Positions 11,261 through 39,338 of a stretch of DNA of 64,000 bases are shown here, in pieces (positions within the stretch are counted from its first letter, which is position 1; the number at the start of each line of letters is the position of its first letter). The stretch is from Verrucomicrobiota bacterium (lineage in GTDB: Bacteria > Verrucomicrobiota > Verrucomicrobiia > Opitutales > Opitutaceae), in NCBI GenBank assembly GCA_041691855.1, contig JBEPTW010000001.1:14215-78214 (forward strand), in the 5' to 3' direction. The position numbers and the translations under genes were made by a program. The notes beneath the pieces are model-generated. The model ran no database searches and was not told the DNA's origin. It saw only the letters and a program-made list of their open reading frames with translations.

Positions 11261-12370
11261 TCACGTCAGACACCGCACCGCCATATCGCGCAGCACCACT
11301 TCCTGTTCATTCGGACGGCGGATGATTTCCTCGAAGGCGCGGACGAATTCCTGCTGGTTGTCGATCAACCGGCGCAATGTCGGTAGTTTCGCCGAACCGA
11401 CCAGTTTGCCAACATACCACTGGTTTTGCGTGAAAATATTATACGCGCTCTTTTCGGTGTCGCCGCCGAAATGCTCCGAATAAGCCGCTTGCGCCTTCGC
11501 CCACGCCGCTTTGTCGAAACCGTACGGACCGGGCGCGCGCAAATCGCCGGCATCGATCAGCACCCGCACCTGCAACAGGATTCGGTTGCGATTCTGGAGT
11601 GCACTGATGATCGGTCGGGCGTCGCCACCGGCAAAAAAATGGCGCTGCAACTCGACCAGCGTGCCGCGCAAATCACCGGCGAAAAAACGTTCGGCGGATG
11701 CGAAAAAATCGCCCTCGGCAAAGTTGGGCGTCAATTCCTCGACGTGCGCTTCCTCGATCACTCCGCCGTCGCCCGCGTAGGTGGCGAGTTTGCGCGTCTC
11801 CTCAGTCAACAAACGCGTATTCGCCCCCACTTTTTGTAACAAGAGTTCCAGGGCGTTGTTGCCAAACGTCGCGTTAAATCCCTTCGCCTCGGCCATCGCC
11901 ACCATCGCCAATCCCTCGCCCGCCGATTCACCGTCGCCGCCGGCCAAGGTGAAATCCGAATTCGCTTCGCACCATTTCGCAAACGCGCGCCGTCGATCCA
12001 CCGGTGCCGCCGTGATCACGATGGTCACTTCGTCCGCTTTTGCTTTTTCCAAAAGATCCTGCAACGCCGCAACCTGCTTGAGCGTCCCCTCGGCCCGCCC
12101 GGTGACGGTATCGGCGAGAAAGTTCATGTCCTTGAGCCACACCACGCGCTTGCCGCCAAACATCGGTACCGTCTGCACCGCATCACGAAAACGATTCACC
12201 GCCGTTTCGACTTCATCGACATTCGCGGCAAAACCGCTGACGACTTCCCGCGAAAAATCATCCGCATTTGCCTCCGCCACGAGCGCGTCGAACCGCTCCT
12301 TGCCCTCCCGATTGACGATGAAGTCATCGGGCCCGCAGATGAAGACGAAGTTTTTGGTCACTGTCGGCAT
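11261..12370 (-). CDS. holA: DNA polymerase III delta subunit
   Basis: FICGPDDF, QTVPMFGGKRVVWLK, LLTEETRKLATY; typical length. ATG at 12370. Confidence 0.85.
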   Translation of the reverse strand: MPTVTKNFVFICGPDDFIVNREGKERFDALVAEANADDFSREVVSGFAANVDEVETAVNRFRDAVQTVPMFGGKRVVWLKDMNFLADTVTGRAEGTLKQVAALQDLLEKAKADEVTIVITAAPVDRRRAFAKWCEANSDFTLAGGDGESAGEGLAMVAMAEAKGFNATFGNNALELLLQKVGANTRLLTEETRKLATYAGDGGVIEEAHVEELTPNFAEGDFFASAERFFAGDLRGTLVELQRHFFAGGDARPIISALQNRNRILLQVRVLIDAGDLRAPGPYGFDKAAWAKAQAAYSEHFGGDTEKSAYNIFTQNQWYVGKLVGSAKLPTLRRLIDNQQEFVRAFEEIIRRPNEQEVVLRDMAVRCLT

Positions 12371-12384
12371 GAGCCGGAATTTGC

Positions 12385-12412
12385 CCACGAAACATACGAA
12401 AGCGCACGAAAA
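12385..12412 (+). repeat. 9-bp-period triplet repeat
   Basis: ccacgaaac-atacgaaag-cgcacgaaa, with acgaa recurring at about 9-10 bp spacing. Confidence 0.5.
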
Positions 12413-12511
12413 TTATTGGCCAAATCAAGCCTCCGCGCGTTTTTCTTTTCGCTGAGCGCACAACACGCCCGGCGTCGCGTTCCGCCAAGCCGTATTCATG
12501 CAATCGGTTTA

Positions 12512-12657
12512 GGCTGTGTCTGGTAAATAAACTATCACCAATCAACTCTGCTCGGGCGCGTAGGGCCGTCGCTTGCGACGTGCCGTTTTTCGCGCGCGAG
12601 GCCGGCGCAAGCACCGGCCCTACAGCAGGCGACGCAAGTTATTTCCCAGACGCGCCC
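12512..12657. mobile_element. 146-bp MITE, copy 1, with an internal GTAG-REP doublet
   Basis: Imperfect 19-bp terminal inverted repeats (ggctgtgtctggtaaataa / ttatttcccagacgcgccc), TA on both flanks, near-identical to 39114-39259. Confidence 0.85.
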
Positions 12658-12685
12658 TAACCACTTCTGGCTTAGTAATTGTTTT

Positions 12686-12752
12686 GTAGCGACAGGCGTC
12701 CCGCCTGTCGGATTGGCTTCCGTCGATCCCACAGGCCGGAGGCCTGTGTTCC
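12686..12752. repeat. GTAG-type REP pair
   Basis: gtagc-gacaggcgtcccgcctgtc ... cacaggccggaggcctgtg; homologous to 17248-17304 and 59243-59311. Confidence 0.75.
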
Positions 12753-12920: not shown

Positions 12921-14225
12921 CTAATTTGCCAACTGGATCGACGCCTTGCGCGATTCCTTCACCACTTCGCGGCGCAACCAATCTATCGCGGCCGTCACCG
13001 CCCGCTCTTTCACCGCGCAACGCGGGCCGGGATAAGTTAGTTTTTTCGACCAGTCGCCACCCGGCGCGTGCATTCCGACAAAAATCGTCCCCACAGGATT
13101 TTCGCCGACTCCGCCCGTCGGTCCCGCGAATCCCGTGATCGCCACGCCAAAATCAGCCCCGAGTTGCTCCGCGACACCCGTCGCCATCGCCACTGCGCAT
13201 TCCGCGCTGACCGCCCCGTGCTGCGAAAGCAAACACTCGGGACAATCGAGCAACAACATCTTCGAATCGTTGCTGTATGAAACGATGCCGCCTTGGAAAA
13301 ATTTCGAAGCACCGCAAACGTCCGTAAATGAATTCGCGAGCAATCCGCCCGTACACGATTCCGCCACCGCTAGCGTCCGGCCCTGCGCGCGAAGCTCGTC
13401 CGCGACGACCTTCACCATGCTGTCGTGGCCAAAACACACGAAATCCTCGTCGAGCAACCCGGCGCACTCATTCGCCAAGCTGCGCAAAACATTCATCGAA
13501 TAGCGCCCATCCGGTGAACTGATCCGGCAATCCACCTGCCCAAGATGCGCGCAAAACGCGATGCCCAGCTCAGGATATCGGTCGAACAACGGCTGAAATT
13601 TCATCTCCAACGCCGACTCGCCCACACCAGCCGTGCGAATCTGAATATAGGCTTCGCTTTCGGAAAGCAGTCCGAGCGCTGCCAGCCGTGGAATCACCTG
13701 CTCCTTGAAAATCGGCCGGAGCTCATTGGGCGGTCCGGGCAGCATGATCAGCACTTTCCCGTCTTGTTGCACCCAAAGTCCCGGCGCCGTGCCGTTCGCG
13801 TTGGCCAGGACTTCGCTGCGCTCAAATTTGTAAGCCTGTTTCAGGTTGTTCGTAGTCGGCTTGCGGTTGGAGCGCGCAAATCGATCGGTGATGGTCTGCT
13901 CGATCGCCGGATCAAAAACCAATTTCTGCCCCAACGCTTTCGCGAGCACCTCACGCGTACGGTCGTCACAGGTCGGCCCAAGTCCGCCCGTGGTAATAAT
14001 CACATCCGCCTTCGCCCAGCTTTCGCGAAATTGTTCGGCGATGGCGAATGCCTCATCCGTGATGGTCACATTCCTCGCCAGCATCACCCCGCGTCGGCCG
14101 AGCTCGGCCCCGATCCACGTCAGATGGCCGTTCGCCGTCAGTCCCAAGAGCAGCTCGTCGCCCAAGGTGAGCAACTCATAACGCGGCGCGACGCGGCGCG
14201 AATTTGACGGTTCAATAGTAGCCAT
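12921..14225 (-). CDS. cinA: Competence/damage-inducible protein CinA (MoCF-like domain plus PncC domain)
   Basis: LGDELLLG, TTGGLGPTCDDRT, MLPGPPNEL, AESCTGG, HGAVSAECA, ITGFAGP. Confidence 0.93.
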   Translation of the reverse strand: MATIEPSNSRRVAPRYELLTLGDELLLGLTANGHLTWIGAELGRRGVMLARNVTITDEAFAIAEQFRESWAKADVIITTGGLGPTCDDRTREVLAKALGQKLVFDPAIEQTITDRFARSNRKPTTNNLKQAYKFERSEVLANANGTAPGLWVQQDGKVLIMLPGPPNELRPIFKEQVIPRLAALGLLSESEAYIQIRTAGVGESALEMKFQPLFDRYPELGIAFCAHLGQVDCRISSPDGRYSMNVLRSLANECAGLLDEDFVCFGHDSMVKVVADELRAQGRTLAVAESCTGGLLANSFTDVCGASKFFQGGIVSYSNDSKMLLLDCPECLLSQHGAVSAECAVAMATGVAEQLGADFGVAITGFAGPTGGVGENPVGTIFVGMHAPGGDWSKKLTYPGPRCAVKERAVTAAIDWLRREVVKESRKASIQLAN

Positions 14226-14386
14226 GCGGTGGGTGTGTGACCGGGGAACTTACCCCGTTTTTTTGAAAATGCCAGCCGGCTGGTGACAATGACGCGCTTT
14301 CTGTCGTTGCGACTAAACCACAAGTGATCAATTCAGCGGTAGGTTCGCTGGCAGTCTCTCCCGCCGACGATTCTCCTGCCCTGATA

Positions 14387-15889
14387 ATGCCTGATCCACG
14401 CCATACCGACGCACTCAAGGAAAAGGTCCGCGCCCTGCCGGACGGCCCCGGCGTGTATTTAATGAAGGATCGTCTCGGCCGCATTATTTATGTCGGCAAG
14501 GCCAAGAGTCTTAAAAAACGCGTTTCCTCCTACTTCCAAGCTGGCCGATCCCGCGCGCTGCACCATCAACCTAAAATCCGGACCTTGATCGAGATGATCG
14601 TCGATCTCGAAATTCTCGAGGTCAAGTCCGAGCCCGAGGCGCTTTTACTGGAAGGAAAACTCATCAAACAGTGGCGGCCAAAGTACAACACCGACTTCAC
14701 CGACGACAAACGCTTCCTGCTGGTCCGGCTGGATCTCGAGGTCGAACTTCCCCGCTTTGTCCTCACGCGTTTCAAAAAAGATACGCGCTCGCGCTACTTC
14801 GGGCCGTTTGCCCATTCCGGATTGTTGCGCAAAACACTCGCGACGATGCGCGCGAAATTCGGCGTGTTGCTCGGCGATTCCTCGCCGAAGAAAATTTCCG
14901 CCGACACTTGGCAACTTTACGACGACGTGCGCTCCGAACTTTATGGTTGGCCCAACACGGTCACGACGGCGGAATACCGCGAGCGCGTCGTGCAAGCCGC
15001 CGATTTCCTCGACGGCAAAAGCCGCGAATGGCTCGCTTCACTCCGGACTGAAATGATGGTGCGCGCCGGCAAACAGGAATTCGAAAAAGCCGCCGAACTT
15101 CGCGACATCGTCCTCGCCCTCGAACGAACACTTTCGCCCACGCGAAAATTCAGCCGCGAAGTCGTACAATTGCAGCCGGATCAAACGGCGTTGGTCGCGC
15201 TCCAAACCGCGCTCAACCTGCCGACGCTGCCGGTGAATCTCGAGTGTTTCGATATTTCGCACATCTCCGGGACGTTCGTCGTCGCGTCGATGGTGCACTT
15301 TACCAACGGCCGGCCCGACAAAAATAATTACCGCCGTTTTTCCATTAAAAGTTTTATTGGCAACGACGATTTTCGCGCGATGGAGGAAGTCGTGGGCCGC
15401 CGCTACCGTCGGCTGCGGGACGAGAAAAAAACATTCCCGGATCTGGTCGTGATCGATGGCGGCCGCGGACAGATCGCCGCCGCGTTAAAAGCATTTGTCG
15501 CTATTGATTGCGCGCCGCCGCCAATGATCGGCCTCGCGAAGAAAATGGAGACGATCATTTTTCCCGACGAGCGTCCGCCGCTCAATCTCCCGCTTAATCA
15601 TCCGGCGTTAAATCTGCTCCAACGCCTCCGCGACGAAGCGCATCGTTTTGCCAACACGTACAACGCCGACCTTCGCTCCCGCAAAATCAAGGAAAGCGTG
15701 CTCGACGATTTTCCCGGTCTCGGCCCCGTGCGCCGTGCCGCGTTGCTCGGCCACTTCGGTTCACTCGAAAAACTCCGCGCCGCCACGGTCAAAGAAATCG
15801 GTGCCGCGCCCGGCTTCGGCCCAAAATTCGCCGCCCAGGTCCACGCCTTTCTCGCCACCAAATCACCGCCAGCAGCAAGCGCCGATTAG
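14387..15889 (+). CDS. uvrC: Excinuclease ABC subunit C
   Basis: GIY-YIG (PGVY..IIYVGKAKSL), UVR motif, DISHISG, DGGRGQ, RDEAHRFA, C-terminal HhH. ATG at 14387. Confidence 0.96.
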   Translation: MPDPRHTDALKEKVRALPDGPGVYLMKDRLGRIIYVGKAKSLKKRVSSYFQAGRSRALHHQPKIRTLIEMIVDLEILEVKSEPEALLLEGKLIKQWRPKYNTDFTDDKRFLLVRLDLEVELPRFVLTRFKKDTRSRYFGPFAHSGLLRKTLATMRAKFGVLLGDSSPKKISADTWQLYDDVRSELYGWPNTVTTAEYRERVVQAADFLDGKSREWLASLRTEMMVRAGKQEFEKAAELRDIVLALERTLSPTRKFSREVVQLQPDQTALVALQTALNLPTLPVNLECFDISHISGTFVVASMVHFTNGRPDKNNYRRFSIKSFIGNDDFRAMEEVVGRRYRRLRDEKKTFPDLVVIDGGRGQIAAALKAFVAIDCAPPPMIGLAKKMETIIFPDERPPLNLPLNHPALNLLQRLRDEAHRFANTYNADLRSRKIKESVLDDFPGLGPVRRAALLGHFGSLEKLRAATVKEIGAAPGFGPKFAAQVHAFLATKSPPAASAD

Positions 15890-15985
15890 GCTGTGTCAGG
15901 TAAATAAACCATCGCCAATCAGCTCTGCTCGGGCGCGTAGGGCCGTCGCTTGCGACGTGCCGTTTTTTGCGCGCGAGGCCGGTGC
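15889..15985. mobile_element. Truncated MITE, copy 2 (left terminal repeat plus first REP)
   Basis: Matches the first ~95 bp of 12512-12657 and begins inside the uvrC TAG stop codon. Confidence 0.8.
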
Positions 15986-37505: not shown

Positions 37506-37693
37506 TTGGAGACCATAATTCAGAGGAGCGTTGCGCGCGGTCAACTTTGAAACGTGCCTCACTTTCCATGTACTCCCACTCTGCAGCCGTGAGCCAAGTT
37601 CGTCACGACCATTAATTATTTTTGGAATACAAATGGCCGCGTGCACCTTTCGTGGCATGCTGCCGGCAGATTTTTCCAGCGACCCATTTATCC

Positions 37694-39088
37694 ATGCAAA
37701 CCAATCGAATCAGTGTTTCGGTATTCGTCTTAACTGCCGCCTCGGCGGTTTTTTCCCTAACTTCTCCATGCGGTGCGGCCGCTGCTGCGACTATCAGCTC
37801 CGCGGAATGGACCAAACCAGACTGGCTGGGAGAATTGTCGTTTTCGGCGAAAGAAAGCTACGACGATAATCTCCTCGGCGTCTCCGGCAAGGGGTTGAAA
37901 CCAGAGTCAGCGTGGGTCAGTTCGCTTTCCTTCAAGCTGGGCATGAATTTTGTGCCGTTGCTCGAAAAGGACAGCGTCGTCAAAACGTTTACCTTGGCTT
38001 ACATCCCGGAAAAATCCTGGTACGATGGAAATTCGTCCGAGAATTATTCTTCGCACCGGATCAATTCCGTGATCGCTGGCAAATCGGGCAATGTCTCCTT
38101 CAGTTTCGACAACGCGTTCCTTTACGTTGACGGCAACAAGGAAGCCCCGACTTACGCGCTGAACCAGTTTGCTGGCGCGGCCGCGAACCAGAATGACAAG
38201 TTCCGCAATAATTATGCGCACGCTTCCGCCCGCGAACGCCGCGCCCAAGTGCAGGATCGTTACACCGCTTCTTTGCAGTATGCCTCGGGAAATGTTTTCG
38301 TTCGGGCGGCCTCCGCGATGGCGCTTTTCGATCTCGATACCAATCTCCACAATTCCGCGCAGGCTCCTTACAAGGGATATCAGAACTACATTGACCGTTA
38401 TGACCTCAATGGGGGCTTGGATTTTGGTTATAAAATAACCCCGGATATTGCGCTGACGCTGGGCTACCGCGACGGATATCAATATCAGCAAAAATTTGAT
38501 GTGGCGATCAGCGGAGACCAGCATGCGTCTTCCAACCATTACCAACGCGTTCTATTCGGCGTTGAAGGCAAACCAGTCCAGTGGCTCACGGTGAAATTGG
38601 CTGTCGGCCCGGATGCCCGCAAATATGAGGCGAGTGCAGCCATCGCCGATCTGCGTACCACCCGTTTTTATGCCGAGGGTTCTTTCTCCGCCACGCTGCC
38701 ACATAGTCAGTCACTGTCGCTCACCTACAAACAATGGTTGTTTGTTGGCAGCACCGGTCTGGCTCCTTACGATGATATTGCCTTTGGTCTCGCCTATCAT
38801 TGGAGCGCGACCAAGCAGCTCGGCTTCGATCTTGGGTTCAAATATGTTGAGGCTAACTATACGATTGGAAATGACGTGGCCGGTTCAGCGCCTGCTTTCC
38901 GCGACGATCTCGATTACGTGTACTCGGTCGGCGCCACTTACGCCTTCACTTCGCACCTGCTCCTCAGCGCCTCCTTCGTTTACGACCAAGCCAAGAATGG
39001 TTTGGACGGTCTGGCGGCAAGCTACGGCCCGTCCTATCGTGAATTTCAGCACGGGCTGAGCACAGTCGGCATCCAATATAAATTCTGA
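37694..39088 (+). CDS. Outer-membrane beta-barrel protein
   Basis: Signal peptide, many amphipathic strands, C-terminal VGIQYKF. ATG at 37694. Confidence 0.8.
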   Translation: MQTNRISVSVFVLTAASAVFSLTSPCGAAAAATISSAEWTKPDWLGELSFSAKESYDDNLLGVSGKGLKPESAWVSSLSFKLGMNFVPLLEKDSVVKTFTLAYIPEKSWYDGNSSENYSSHRINSVIAGKSGNVSFSFDNAFLYVDGNKEAPTYALNQFAGAAANQNDKFRNNYAHASARERRAQVQDRYTASLQYASGNVFVRAASAMALFDLDTNLHNSAQAPYKGYQNYIDRYDLNGGLDFGYKITPDIALTLGYRDGYQYQQKFDVAISGDQHASSNHYQRVLFGVEGKPVQWLTVKLAVGPDARKYEASAAIADLRTTRFYAEGSFSATLPHSQSLSLTYKQWLFVGSTGLAPYDDIAFGLAYHWSATKQLGFDLGFKYVEANYTIGNDVAGSAPAFRDDLDYVYSVGATYAFTSHLLLSASFVYDQAKNGLDGLAASYGPSYREFQHGLSTVGIQYKF

Positions 39089-39113
39089 GTGATGACGCTG
39101 GTTCGCAGCCCTG

Positions 39114-39259
39114 GGCTGTGTCTGGTAAATAAACTAGCGCCAATCAACTCTGCTCGGGCGCGTAGAGCCGTCGCTTGCGACGTGCCGTTTTTCGCGCGCG
39201 AGGCCGGCGCAAGCTCCGGCCCTACAGCAAGCGACGCAAGTTATTTCCCAGACACGCCC
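39114..39259. mobile_element. 146-bp MITE, copy 3
   Basis: Same terminal repeats and same length as 12512-12657, flanked by TG on both sides. Confidence 0.85.
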
Positions 39260-39309
39260 TGGGCGTTAACTTCGGTATTTCTGGGTTAATTAATCCAGGT
39301 AACACTCCC

Positions 39310-39338
39310 ACGGTGGTCGTATTCGCCACCGTTTTTTT
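39310..39338 (+). terminator. Intrinsic terminator of the barrel gene
   Basis: acggtgg-tcgtattcg-ccaccgt hairpin followed by a T-run. Confidence 0.7.

What the first reader, a model, noticed from the sequence alone, without database searches (positions are those of the whole stretch)
12512..12657. 146-bp MITE that packages a GTAG-REP doublet inside IS-like terminal repeats
Three copies: 12512-12657 and 39114-39259 (both 146 bp, complete), and 15889-15985 (truncated). They have 19-bp imperfect terminal inverted repeats and 2-bp direct flanks (TA, TG), resembling IS5-family ends (inference). Inside sit two facing REP hairpins: gtagggccgtcgcttgcgacgtgcc (12560-12584) and ggccggcgcaagcaccggccctac (12600-12623). 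REP doublets are normally moved by RAYT/HUH transposases and MITEs by DDE transposases, so a nested hybrid suggests a REP doublet riding on a DDE system. One copy begins in the uvrC TAG stop; another lies between a stop codon and its terminator.
Basis: partly seen in the sequence, partly recalled or inferred. Interest (0 to 1): 0.65.

Follow-up and report, generated by a model that had tools for sequence, protein, structure and literature searches.

The report
MITE carrying a captured REP doublet
A 146-bp non-coding jumping element, present about 55 times in this Verrucomicrobiota genome, has the ends and TA duplication of a small IS5-type insertion sequence. Its core is a REP doublet normally served by a different enzyme (RAYT), so one mobile repeat appears to be copied by another element's machinery.

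Summary

- **Copies.** The element lies at 12512-12657 and 39114-39259, with a partial copy at 15889-15985. The whole assembly has 28 full, 20 partial and 14 contig-end copies.
- **Duplication.** Sixteen of the first 25 full copies have TA on both sides; window copy 2 has TG/TG. At seven orthologous sites two sister species lack the element. Six of these carry a single TA and the window copy 2 site a single TG, so insertion adds 146+2 bp.
- **Parent IS.** A 902-bp IS5-family element in the sister species G011 has the same 20-bp termini and TA flanks. This assembly holds only decayed copies of it.
- **Core.** The GTAG…CTAC core aligns end to end with free-standing REP doublets in eight same-genus genomes. 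The same REPs flank RAYT genes in three of them. The arms occur only here and in G011.
- **RAYT.** No orthologue of the cognate RAYT is found here. Close relatives keep 9-11 such REPs, against 73 here, almost all inside the MITE.

My reading is a DDE-mobilised MITE that captured a REPIN. An IS110-like element has also inserted just after the GTAG of these REPs in four copies. I rate it a new variant of known kinds, of moderate interest.

The parts
12510..12511 (.). Left copy of the TA target-site duplication of MITE copy 1
   Evidence: Read directly. TA/TA flanks occur in 16 of 25 full copies. A single TA stands at orthologous empty sites of other copies.
12512..12657 (+). MITE copy 1 (146 bp, complete), between cinA (12921-14225, minus strand) and holA (11261-12388, minus strand)
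   Evidence: It is 98% identical to the genome consensus.
12512..12530 (+). Left terminal inverted repeat GGCTGTGTCTGGTAAATAA
   Evidence: The first 20 bases of the element are identical to the terminus of the 902-bp IS5-family element G011:C288:272-1173.
12560..12584 (+). REP 1: GTAG head plus GC-rich hairpin (GTAGGGCCGTCGCTTGCGACGTGCC)
   Evidence: By my reading, 25 of 25 identical to the left REP of free-standing doublets in G017 and G001. Near-identical to a REP flanking the RAYT gene of G014:C27.
12585..12599 (+). Spacer of the REP doublet
   Evidence: It aligns partly with the spacers of free-standing doublets in relatives.
12600..12623 (-). REP 2, facing REP 1. Its reverse complement is GTAGGGCCGGTGCTTGCGCCGGCC.
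   Evidence: Identical (24 of 24) to the REP upstream of the RAYT gene in G014:C27 and to solitary REPs at G000 C246:4307 and C288:1117.
12639..12657 (-). Right terminal inverted repeat (TTATTTCCCAGACGCGCCC)
12658..12659 (.). Right copy of the TA duplication of copy 1
39112..39113 (.). Left copy of the TG duplication of MITE copy 2
   Evidence: The empty site in G045 reads ..GCCGTGACA.. with a single TG. In G011 the interval is 12 nt, equal to G000 after removing 146+2 bp.
39114..39259 (+). MITE copy 2 (146 bp, complete), between the stop codon of ORF 37622-39088 and its terminator-like hairpin
   Evidence: The orthologous sites in G011 and G045 lack it.
39260..39261 (.). Right copy of the TG duplication of copy 2
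39309..39338 (+). Hairpin plus T-run (terminator-like) downstream of copy 2, conserved at the empty sites of relatives
   Evidence: Read. The conserved sequence in G011 and G045 is shown.
15887..15889 (+). uvrC stop codon TAG, formed by the target TA plus the first G of the element
   Evidence: The same arrangement occurs at 17 of 74 element ends genome-wide.
15889..15985 (+). Partial MITE copy 3: left arm, REP 1, spacer and the start of REP 2, joined to other repeat modules
   Evidence: The continuation matches interior segments of the G011 370-bp MITE in inverted orientation.

Best explanation
The 146-bp unit is a non-autonomous transposable element (MITE). I infer that it is moved in trans by the DDE transposase of a roughly 900-bp IS5-family insertion sequence of the IS427-like kind.

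That IS has two reading frames joined at an A-run, which I read as a likely -1 frameshift site. Its 20-bp termini begin GGCTGTGTCTGG. Insertion goes into a TA, usually within YTAR, and duplicates it.

Only the roughly 20-bp termini of the MITE come from the IS. The middle 65 bp is a complete REPIN: two facing GTAG-headed REP hairpins. This REP family is spread across the genus and flanks RAYT (HUH/Y1) genes in other species.

The REPIN is a passenger. In this species it has been copied about 55 times by cut-and-paste or copy-in of the MITE, not by its own RAYT. No orthologue of that RAYT is found in this assembly or in its closest relatives.

Shown here: the repeat family, the inverted termini, the 2-bp duplication with empty sites, an IS with matching ends, the independent existence of arms and REPs, and the REP-RAYT linkage in relatives.

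Inferred: that a transposase of this IS type performed the amplification. None is intact in this assembly. Also inferred is the direction of capture (the REPIN entered the MITE), and that RAYT loss came before, and is bypassed by, the MITE-borne spread.
For: **Copy number and similarity.** There are 67 loci, 28 of them full length. The listed full copies are 96-100% identical to the consensus, mean pairwise identity is 93.7%, and flanks are unrelated.

**Duplication.** TA/TA flanks occur in 16 of 25 full copies, plus one TG/TG. At seven orthologous sites (C132, C95, C130, C208, C136, C235 and window copy 2) the element is absent in G011 (about 93% identical flanks) and/or G045 (87%). Six carry one TA and the window copy 2 site one TG. 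The gap is exactly 148 bp where it could be measured directly.

**Parent IS.** G011:C288:272-1173 is 902 bp, flanked TA/TA, with termini 20 of 20 identical to the MITE. It encodes DUF4096 plus DDE_Tnp_1. An intact 904-bp relative at G014:C488 has perfect 20-bp termini and TA flanks, and matches NF033580 (IS5 family) at 214 bits against a cut-off of 110. Neither IS contains a REP.

**Arms without the doublet.** G011 has 370-405-bp MITEs with the same ends and other cargo. The terminus motif is present in only 2 of 25 relatives, G011 plus a single hit in G017.

**Doublet without the arms.** The core (positions 49-113) matches alone in at least 15 same-genus genomes. Alignment with eight free-standing doublets stops at GTAG and CTAC. 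REP counts are G008 208, G014 46 and G017 33, against 0-1 for the reversed control pattern.

**RAYT link.** RAYT genes in G014:C27, G001:C32 and G008:C230 are flanked by inverted REPs of this family. Their best family match is NF047646, REP-associated tyrosine transposase.

**RAYT missing here.** The best tblastn hits in G000 are 30-38% identical paralogues. There is no hit at E<=1e-25 in G000, G045 or G066, and only a 40% paralogue in G011. Those relatives keep 9-11 REPs, against 73 in G000, of which only about 10 lie outside MITE copies.
Against: - No intact transposase with these termini exists in the G000 assembly. Only decayed copies are present, at C29:10236-11112 (78% nucleotide identity, many frameshifts), C29:9054-9201 and C129.
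- The G011 copy carries stop codons (my reading of the frames).
- The intact G014 IS has termini that differ at 3 of 20 positions.
- The genome is a fragmented MAG with a minimum contig length near 1.5 kb. A multi-copy 0.9-kb IS, or a single RAYT gene, could simply be missing (about 95% complete).
- Two one-armed copies break exactly at the REPIN edges (C328, C252). This hints that some events act at the GTAG boundaries, so a Y1 enzyme may still act on these REPs.
- Transposition itself was not observed.
Confidence: 0.85

Rival explanations
1. The whole 146-bp unit is one extended REPIN mobilised by a RAYT (Y1/HUH) enzyme, and the outer arms are part of the RAYT substrate.
For: The core has all the features of a REPIN, and the unit folds into one long hairpin (-68 kcal/mol, z = -4.5). 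G000 has four small RAYT-like genes. Two one-armed copies break at the REPIN edges.
Against: IS200/IS605-type Y1 transposition makes no target duplication (established knowledge), yet a TA duplication with clean empty sites is shown. The arms equal the termini of a DDE-encoding IS. Arms and REPs occur independently. The RAYT-like genes of G000 are flanked by other REP families, and the cognate RAYT is not found.
Confidence: 0.03
2. Direction reversed: the hairpin pair is native to the MITE, and the free-standing doublets in relatives derive from MITE cores rather than from a RAYT-linked REPIN family.
For: G011's long MITEs share the same REP 2-to-right-arm junction, so the association of REP and arm is older than the G000 burst.
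Against: The REP family is found in at least 12 same-genus genomes and flanks RAYT genes in three of them. The arms are found in only two closely related species. In relatives, homology ends exactly at GTAG and CTAC.
Confidence: 0.04
3. The copies are kept, or were spread, because the host uses them, for example as transcript-end hairpins, attenuators or mRNA stabilisers placed after stop codons. Mobility would be secondary.
For: The fold is strong. 17 of 74 element ends sit exactly on a stop codon of an open frame of at least 100 codons. Copy 2 lies between a stop codon and a terminator. REPs are reported to affect transcript stability (Delihas 2011, PMC3184786).
Against: A preference for TA within YTAR explains landing on TAA and TAG stops without any selection. 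The examined sites are empty in sister species, so none of them is an old conserved feature. There are no expression data.
Confidence: 0.1
4. Assembly or binning artefact: the repeats belong to several organisms or are chimeric contig ends.
For: This is a MAG with 354 contigs and 3.5% estimated contamination, and 14 copies lie at contig ends.
Against: There are 28 full copies inside contigs with unique flanks, three of them on the window's own contig. Flanks are orthologous to sister genomes.
Confidence: 0.01

Closest known systems
REPIN/RAYT systems (Bertels & Rainey 2011, PMC3116915; GTAG REPs, Di Nocera et al. 2013, PMC3733652)
   Same: The 65-bp core is two inverted GTAG-headed GC-rich hairpins with a short spacer. 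The same REPs flank a RAYT gene in inverted orientation in sister species. [quoted passage not shown]
   Different: Here the doublet sits inside inverted termini and is inserted with a TA duplication. Almost all copies in this genome are MITE-borne, and the cognate RAYT is not found.
IS5-family insertion sequences of the IS427-like group and their MITEs
   Same: The element is about 900 bp, its termini begin GG, and it makes a 2-bp TA duplication. It encodes DUF4096 plus a DDE domain split at an A-run, and matches NF033580. The MITE shares the termini and the duplication.
   Different: Only about 20 bp at each end derive from the IS, so the interior is not an internal-deletion remnant but a foreign REPIN. 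The subgroup assignment (IS427) rests on my memory of ISfinder criteria, not on a database comparison.
Correia/NEMIS elements of Neisseria and RUP of Streptococcus pneumoniae (classical bacterial MITEs, listed in PMC3733652)
   Same: These are non-coding elements of about 100-160 bp with inverted termini, tens to hundreds of copies, often next to genes and transcribed as hairpins. From memory, both duplicate TA.
   Different: Those elements carry no RAYT-type REP doublet, and their ends are unrelated.
MITE with a passenger repeat: the minisatellite-bearing MITE of Porphyromonas gingivalis (PMC4596501)
   Same: It is a MITE whose interior is another class of repeated DNA.
   Different: The passenger there is a tandem minisatellite, not a mobile element that has its own dedicated transposase class.
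REP-targeting insertion sequences (IS1397, IS621; Delihas 2011, PMC3184786)
   Same: They show interplay between REPs and IS elements. In this genome an IS110-like element has inserted right after the GTAG of the MITE-borne REPs in four copies.
   Different: In those cases the IS lands in REPs. In the main finding the relation is the reverse: a REP doublet is carried inside an IS-derived element.

Membership tests
[quoted passage not shown] | Terminal inverted repeats | tested here: met
   The consensus termini GGCTGTGTCTGGTAAATAA and GGGCGTGTCTGGGAAATAA (reverse complement of the right end) match at 16 of 19 positions by my reading.
[quoted passage not shown] | Target-site duplication, shown by filled versus empty sites | tested here: met
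   At seven orthologous sites the element is absent in G011 and/or G045. Six carry a single TA and the window copy 2 site a single TG. The gap is 148 bp (146+2) where measured directly.
[quoted passage not shown] | Small, non-coding, multi-copy | tested here: met
   The element is 146 bp, occurs at 67 loci and has no room for a transposase gene. There is no Rfam match.
[quoted passage not shown] | Termini shared with an autonomous IS that encodes a transposase | tested here: met
   G011:C288 is a 902-bp IS with termini 20 of 20 identical, though its gene is broken. An intact relative lies at G014:C488.
[quoted passage not shown] | Mobilisation in trans by that transposase | not testable with these tools
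   This needs a transposition assay or population read data.
IS5 family (parent IS) | DDE transposase of the IS5 type | tested here: met
   PF01609 at 4e-22, PF13340 at 6e-19 and PF13586 at 1.5e-10. NF033580 transpos_IS5_3 at 214 bits against a cut-off of 110. The nearest annotated plasmid hits are 'IS5 family transposase' at about 45% identity.
IS5 family (parent IS) | IS427-like subgroup traits: about 0.8-1 kb, 2-bp TA duplication, two frames joined by a frameshift | tested here: inconclusive
   Size (902 and 904 bp) and TA flanks are met. A -1 shift at the conserved CTTAAAAAAT joins the frames in G014 by my reading. The subgroup criteria are recalled from ISfinder and were not checked against it.
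REP / REPIN | GTAG head followed by a GC-rich imperfect palindrome | tested here: met
   GTAGGGCCGTCGCTTGCGACGTGCC and GTAGGGCCGGTGCTTGCGCCGGCC.
REP / REPIN | Two REPs in inverted orientation forming one hairpin | tested here: met
   The predicted fold pairs REP 1 with REP 2, with the same geometry as free-standing doublets in eight relatives.
REP / REPIN | The same REPs flank a RAYT gene in inverted orientation | tested here: met
   Met in relatives: G014:C27, G001:C32 and G008:C230. The best family match is NF047646, at 81.4 bits (over the cut-off of 80) for the G001 protein and 74.6 bits (under it) for G014. Not met in G000 itself.
REP / REPIN | Dispersed in many copies on its own, without other mobile-element features | tested here: met
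   Met in relatives: 208 in G008, 46 in G014 and 33 in G017, with controls at 0-1. In G000 only about 10 REPs lie outside MITE copies.
RAYT-mobilised unit (applied to the whole 146-bp element) | No terminal inverted repeats of an IS and no target-site duplication | tested here: not met
   The 146-bp unit has IS5-type termini and a 2-bp duplication.

The most novel reading that the evidence does not exclude
A REPIN lineage whose own RAYT was lost in this clade has escaped decay by being captured inside an IS5-type MITE. It is now amplified by a DDE transposase of a different mechanistic class. The MITE-borne REPs in turn serve as landing sites for a REP-targeting IS110-family (RNA-guided) element, giving three nested layers of mobile DNA. 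This would be an exception to the view that REPINs depend on, and are inherited vertically with, their RAYT.
Probability: 0.4. Interest if true: 0.7.

Novelty: new variant of a known kind. Interest (0 to 1): 0.55.

Why it matters
REPINs are described as depending on a single-copy RAYT. They are said to be inherited vertically with it and, in that literature as I recall it, to fade once the RAYT is lost.

Here a REP doublet has about seven times more copies than in the nearest relatives, with no cognate RAYT in sight, because it sits inside a DDE-type MITE. This gives a concrete, testable case of one class of mobile DNA hitch-hiking on the machinery of another.

It also shows how a MITE interior can be built from foreign repeats rather than by internal deletion of the parent IS.

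It has practical consequences too. The element regenerates TAG stops when it lands in stop codons. It places strong hairpins between genes and their terminators, breaks short-read assemblies, and multiplies the target sites of a REP-seeking IS110-like element.

Tried and rejected
- **Paralogous empty sites in G000.** Joined flanks were searched against the genome and none was found.
- **Exact-protein look-ups.** UvrC and the 488-aa neighbour of copy 2 were looked up to find other assemblies of the species. Nothing is on record.
- **Autonomous IS in G000.** Every terminus-motif hit lies in a MITE copy except three solitary look-alikes (C50:9777, C77:4933, C247:628), none followed by a transposase gene. 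BLAST with both full IS sequences finds only decayed copies on C29 and C129.
- **Exact terminus across about 185,000 species genomes.** The scan found only G011, one other Verrucomicrobiota MAG and a Lacunisphaera sp. MAG. In the latter two I saw no IS homology beyond the 20-bp terminus, so they look like other MITE-like elements.
- **Rfam scan of copy 1 and flanks.** No match at E<=1.
- **Loose 9-mer search for GTAGGGCCG.** Too unspecific (608 hits outside the MITE), so it was replaced by a longer structured pattern.
- **Global alignment for empty sites.** MAFFT and low-gap-cost aligners scattered the gap, so I aligned joined flanks instead.
- **Pfam on the 99-aa fragment of the intruding IS.** No hit. 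NCBIfam gives IS110 at E = 2e-7.
- **Copy 3 as a simple truncation.** Rejected. It is joined to other repeat modules.

Full report
**1. What is in the window**

- Two complete 146-bp copies lie at 12512-12657 and 39114-39259. They are 95.9% identical.
- A third copy matches positions 1-97 at 15889-15985.
- The ends form an imperfect 19-bp inverted repeat.
- Copy 1 is flanked TA/TA and copy 2 TG/TG.
- Inside are two facing GTAG-headed hairpins, at 12560-12584 and 12600-12623.
- Copy 3 starts in the TAG stop of uvrC (ORF 14324-15889, UvrC domains).
- Copy 2 lies between the stop of ORF 37622-39088 and a hairpin plus T-run.

**2. Genome-wide picture**

The window is C1:14215-78214 of a 4.34-Mb assembly of 354 contigs with 57% G+C. 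Completeness is about 95% and contamination 3.5%.
- BLAST with the element finds 67 loci: 28 full length, 20 internal partial or diverged, 14 cut by contig ends, and 5 with the core only.
- The listed full copies are 96-100% identical to a 146-bp consensus. Mean pairwise identity is 93.7%.
- Flanks are unrelated. Sixteen of the first 25 full copies carry TA on both sides, one carries TG/TG, and six more have TA on one side.

**3. The duplication is real: empty sites**

No paralogous empty site exists. Two sister species share orthologous flanks: G011 at 93% and G045 at 87% identity next to copy 2. I joined the flanks of 25 copies with the element and one dinucleotide removed, then searched both genomes. 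The regions were fetched and aligned.
- At the sites C132, C95, C130, C208, C136 and C235 the relatives read straight through a single TA. Examples are ggtcTAgttcaatg and gatTAgtgt.
- For C132 and C95 the gap in the direct alignment is exactly 148 bp, that is 146+2.
- At window copy 2, G045 has a single TG. In G011 the interval is 12 nt, equal to G000 minus 148 bp.
- Every site I could examine is empty in the relatives, so these insertions are younger than the split from G011.

**4. The ends belong to an IS5-family insertion sequence**

The terminus motif occurs in only 2 of 25 relatives: G011 plus a single hit in G017.
- In G011, two motifs 890 bp apart bound a 902-bp element (C288:272-1173). 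It is flanked cTA…TAa, and its first and last 20 bases equal the MITE termini.
- It encodes DUF4096 plus DDE_Tnp_1/_1_2. By my reading it carries a TAA stop before the YREK region and a TAG just after the frame junction, so that copy is defective.
- A 74%-identical 904-bp relative in G014 (C488) has perfect 20-bp termini (GGCAGTGTCTGCGAAATAAA), TA flanks and an open 244-codon DDE frame. It matches NF033580, IS5 family transposase, at 214 bits.
- In both elements a short upstream frame ends just after a conserved CTTAAAAAAT. A -1 shift there runs into the DDE frame in G014 (my reading).
- G000 has only decayed copies: C29:10236-11112 (78% identical, multiple frameshifts and stops), C29:9054-9201 and C129.
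- Contigs shorter than about 1.5 kb are absent, so a collapsed multi-copy 0.9-kb IS could have been filtered out. Absence of an active copy is not proven.
- Beyond about 20 bp the MITE arms are unrelated to the IS, and neither IS contains a REP.
- G011 also holds 370-405-bp MITEs with the same ends and other interiors. One of them is a mosaic of small repeats with a single REP next to the right arm.

**5. The core is a REPIN of a RAYT-linked family**

A search of 40 relatives found the whole element only in G000 and parts of it in G011. Positions 49-113 alone matched in at least 15 same-genus genomes.
- Aligned with eight free-standing doublets, homology starts at GTAG and ends at CTAC. By my reading the left REP is 25 of 25 identical to those of G017 and G001.
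- A structured REP pattern allowing one mismatch gives 208 hits in G008, 46 in G014, 33 in G017, 21 in G007 and 19 in G012. The reversed control gives 0-1.
- Among Y1_Tnp loci of eight relatives, three genes are flanked by inverted REPs of exactly this family: G014:C27, G001:C32 and G008:C230.
- In G014 one flanking REP is 24 of 24 identical to the MITE's REP 2.
- These proteins carry the HUH motif, and their best match is NF047646, REP-associated tyrosine transposase. The G001 protein scores 81.4 bits (cut-off 80) and the G014 protein 74.6 bits.

**6. The cognate RAYT is not found here**

G000 has eight Y1_Tnp matches.
- Four are small RAYT-like genes, but each is flanked by a different REP family (C4, C39, C313, C22). 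Two of these look broken.
- The rest are 325-328-aa proteins, plus one fragment, without REP flanks.
- The three cognate RAYTs hit G000 only at 30-38% identity.
- Across 65 genomes of the genus, the clade at least 50% identical to the G001 protein is present in G001, G008, G014, G062 and G068. There is no hit at E<=1e-25 in G000, G045 or G066, and only a 40% paralogue in G011.
- Those close relatives keep 9-11 REPs of this family. G000 has 73, of which only about 10 lie outside MITE copies.
- This fits a REPIN population that is fading without its RAYT, except for the copy that entered the MITE. The order of events is inferred.

**7. Mechanism**

Best reading (confidence 0.85): an IS5-type DDE transposase binds the roughly 20-bp termini and inserts the unit into TA, preferring YTAR. 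The REPIN is carried along.

Because both termini begin with G, an insertion into the TA of a TAA or TAG stop recreates TAG. Seventeen of 74 element ends sit on the stop of an open frame of at least 100 codons, uvrC among them.

The unit folds into one long hairpin (-68 kcal/mol, z = -4.5). It has no Rfam match.

Rival readings are rejected or rated low for the reasons given under rival explanations. They are a RAYT-moved extended REPIN, reversed direction of descent, host function as the main cause of spread, and assembly artefact.

**8. Variants worth noting**
- Three copies have lost one REP by deletion between short repeats (C10, C75, C151).
- Two one-armed copies break exactly at the REPIN edges (C328, C252).
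- In four copies the sequence after the REP's GTAG is replaced by the same foreign end. It runs into an ORF that matches NF033542, IS110 family RNA-guided transposase (E = 2e-7, fragment only).
- Several contig-end fragments stop at or within two bases of that GTAG. I read this as an assembly branch point.
- This looks like a REP-targeting IS using the MITE-borne REPs as landing sites. IS621 in E. coli REPs is a comparable case (Delihas 2011).

**9. Organism**

Relatives with names are Verrucomicrobiota MAGs and a Lacunisphaera sp. MAG. GTAG REPs are reported as highly enriched in the verrucomicrobium Opitutus terrae (PMC3733652).

**10. Novelty**

IS5-family MITEs, REPINs and REP-seeking IS elements are each known. 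A REPIN packaged in a DDE-type MITE and amplified without its RAYT was not found in the papers I searched. Delihas 2011 states that REPs do not display MITE signatures.

I rate it a new variant of known kinds, with interest 0.55. Mobility, the active transposase and the order of RAYT loss remain to be shown.

Noticed in passing
G000 contigs C292:1-131, C278:1-103, C190:1-462, C162:8466-8553 (outside the window): In four MITE copies the element is interrupted immediately after the REP's GTAG by the same foreign end (ATGACATGTGCCGACAGGCGG…). In C190 this runs into an ORF matching NF033542, IS110 family RNA-guided transposase (E = 2e-7, fragment). It looks like a REP-targeting IS110-like element. 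Contig-end fragments C198, C202, C203 and C232 stop at or within two bases of that GTAG.
   Followed up: partly
Window 15887-15889 and 16 other element ends in G000: The target TA plus the element's terminal G forms the TAG stop of an open frame of at least 100 codons at 17 of 74 element ends. Insertion into TAA or TAG stops therefore regenerates a stop codon. At C208 the relative G045 reads TAA where G000 now reads TAG.
   Followed up: partly
G000 C4:40332-40562, C39:21225-21407, C313:2149-2331, C22:25179-25445 (loci L006, L007, L008, L005): Four small RAYT-like genes are each bracketed by its own, different REP family. The families include GTAGTCACAGGCC…/GTAGCAACGGGCG…, GGAGCGCGACCTCCGGGCGCGC, GGTAGGGCGTGGACTCCGCTCCACGCC and GGTAGTCCCGCCTCCAG. 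The C313 and C22 genes look frame-broken.
   Followed up: partly
Window 12686-12752: Right next to MITE copy 1 lies a pair of other REP hairpins (GTAGCGACAGGCGTCCCGCCTGTCG and CACAGGCCGGAGGCCTGTG). They resemble the repeats flanking the RAYT-like gene at G000 C4.
   Followed up: partly
G000 C328:2314-2423 and C252:4976-5071: Two one-armed copies. One has the left arm plus the REPIN and ends at the REPIN's 3' edge. The other begins at the REPIN's 5' edge and has only the right arm. Breaks exactly at the GTAG/CTAC edges hint at events acting on the REPIN itself.
   Followed up: no
G000 C10:35954-36061, C75:15382-15488, C151:5721-5807: These are single-REP derivatives of the MITE, apparently made by deletion between short direct repeats inside the core. 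Their termini are more diverged.
   Followed up: no
G011 loci L027 (C739:3115-3483), L034 (C440:3146-3551), L025 (C423:7381-7556): The sister species has 370-405-bp MITEs with the same termini. The interior of the one examined is a mosaic of small repeats that are also scattered in G000. G011 also has a 146-type copy with a 38-bp insert in the loop of REP 1.
   Followed up: partly
G000 C190:1-55 and the ends of C262, C69, C79, C41, C286, C217, C210, C132, C26, C213: Another high-copy sequence (…AACAAACGTAAGCGTACAACTTGGACGTGACGACAGCGGGCGGGGAATCGGGTAGAGTTGG) sits at many contig ends. It follows a stop in the IS110-like ORF at the start of C190. It is an unidentified multi-copy element.
   Followed up: no
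G000 C23:32630-32956, C99:13161-13487, C112:10010-10336 (L001, L002, L004): Three 325-328-aa proteins have an N-terminal Y1_Tnp domain and a long C-terminal extension, and are not flanked by REPs. A fourth, truncated copy lies at C6:45882.
   Followed up: no
G000 C235:3700-3762 and orthologous sites in G011 and G045: The MITE at C235 landed on the TA that already flanked an older, related right terminus (TTATTTGCCAGACCCAGCC|TA) present in all three species. This is a tandem insertion at an earlier element's duplication.
   Followed up: no
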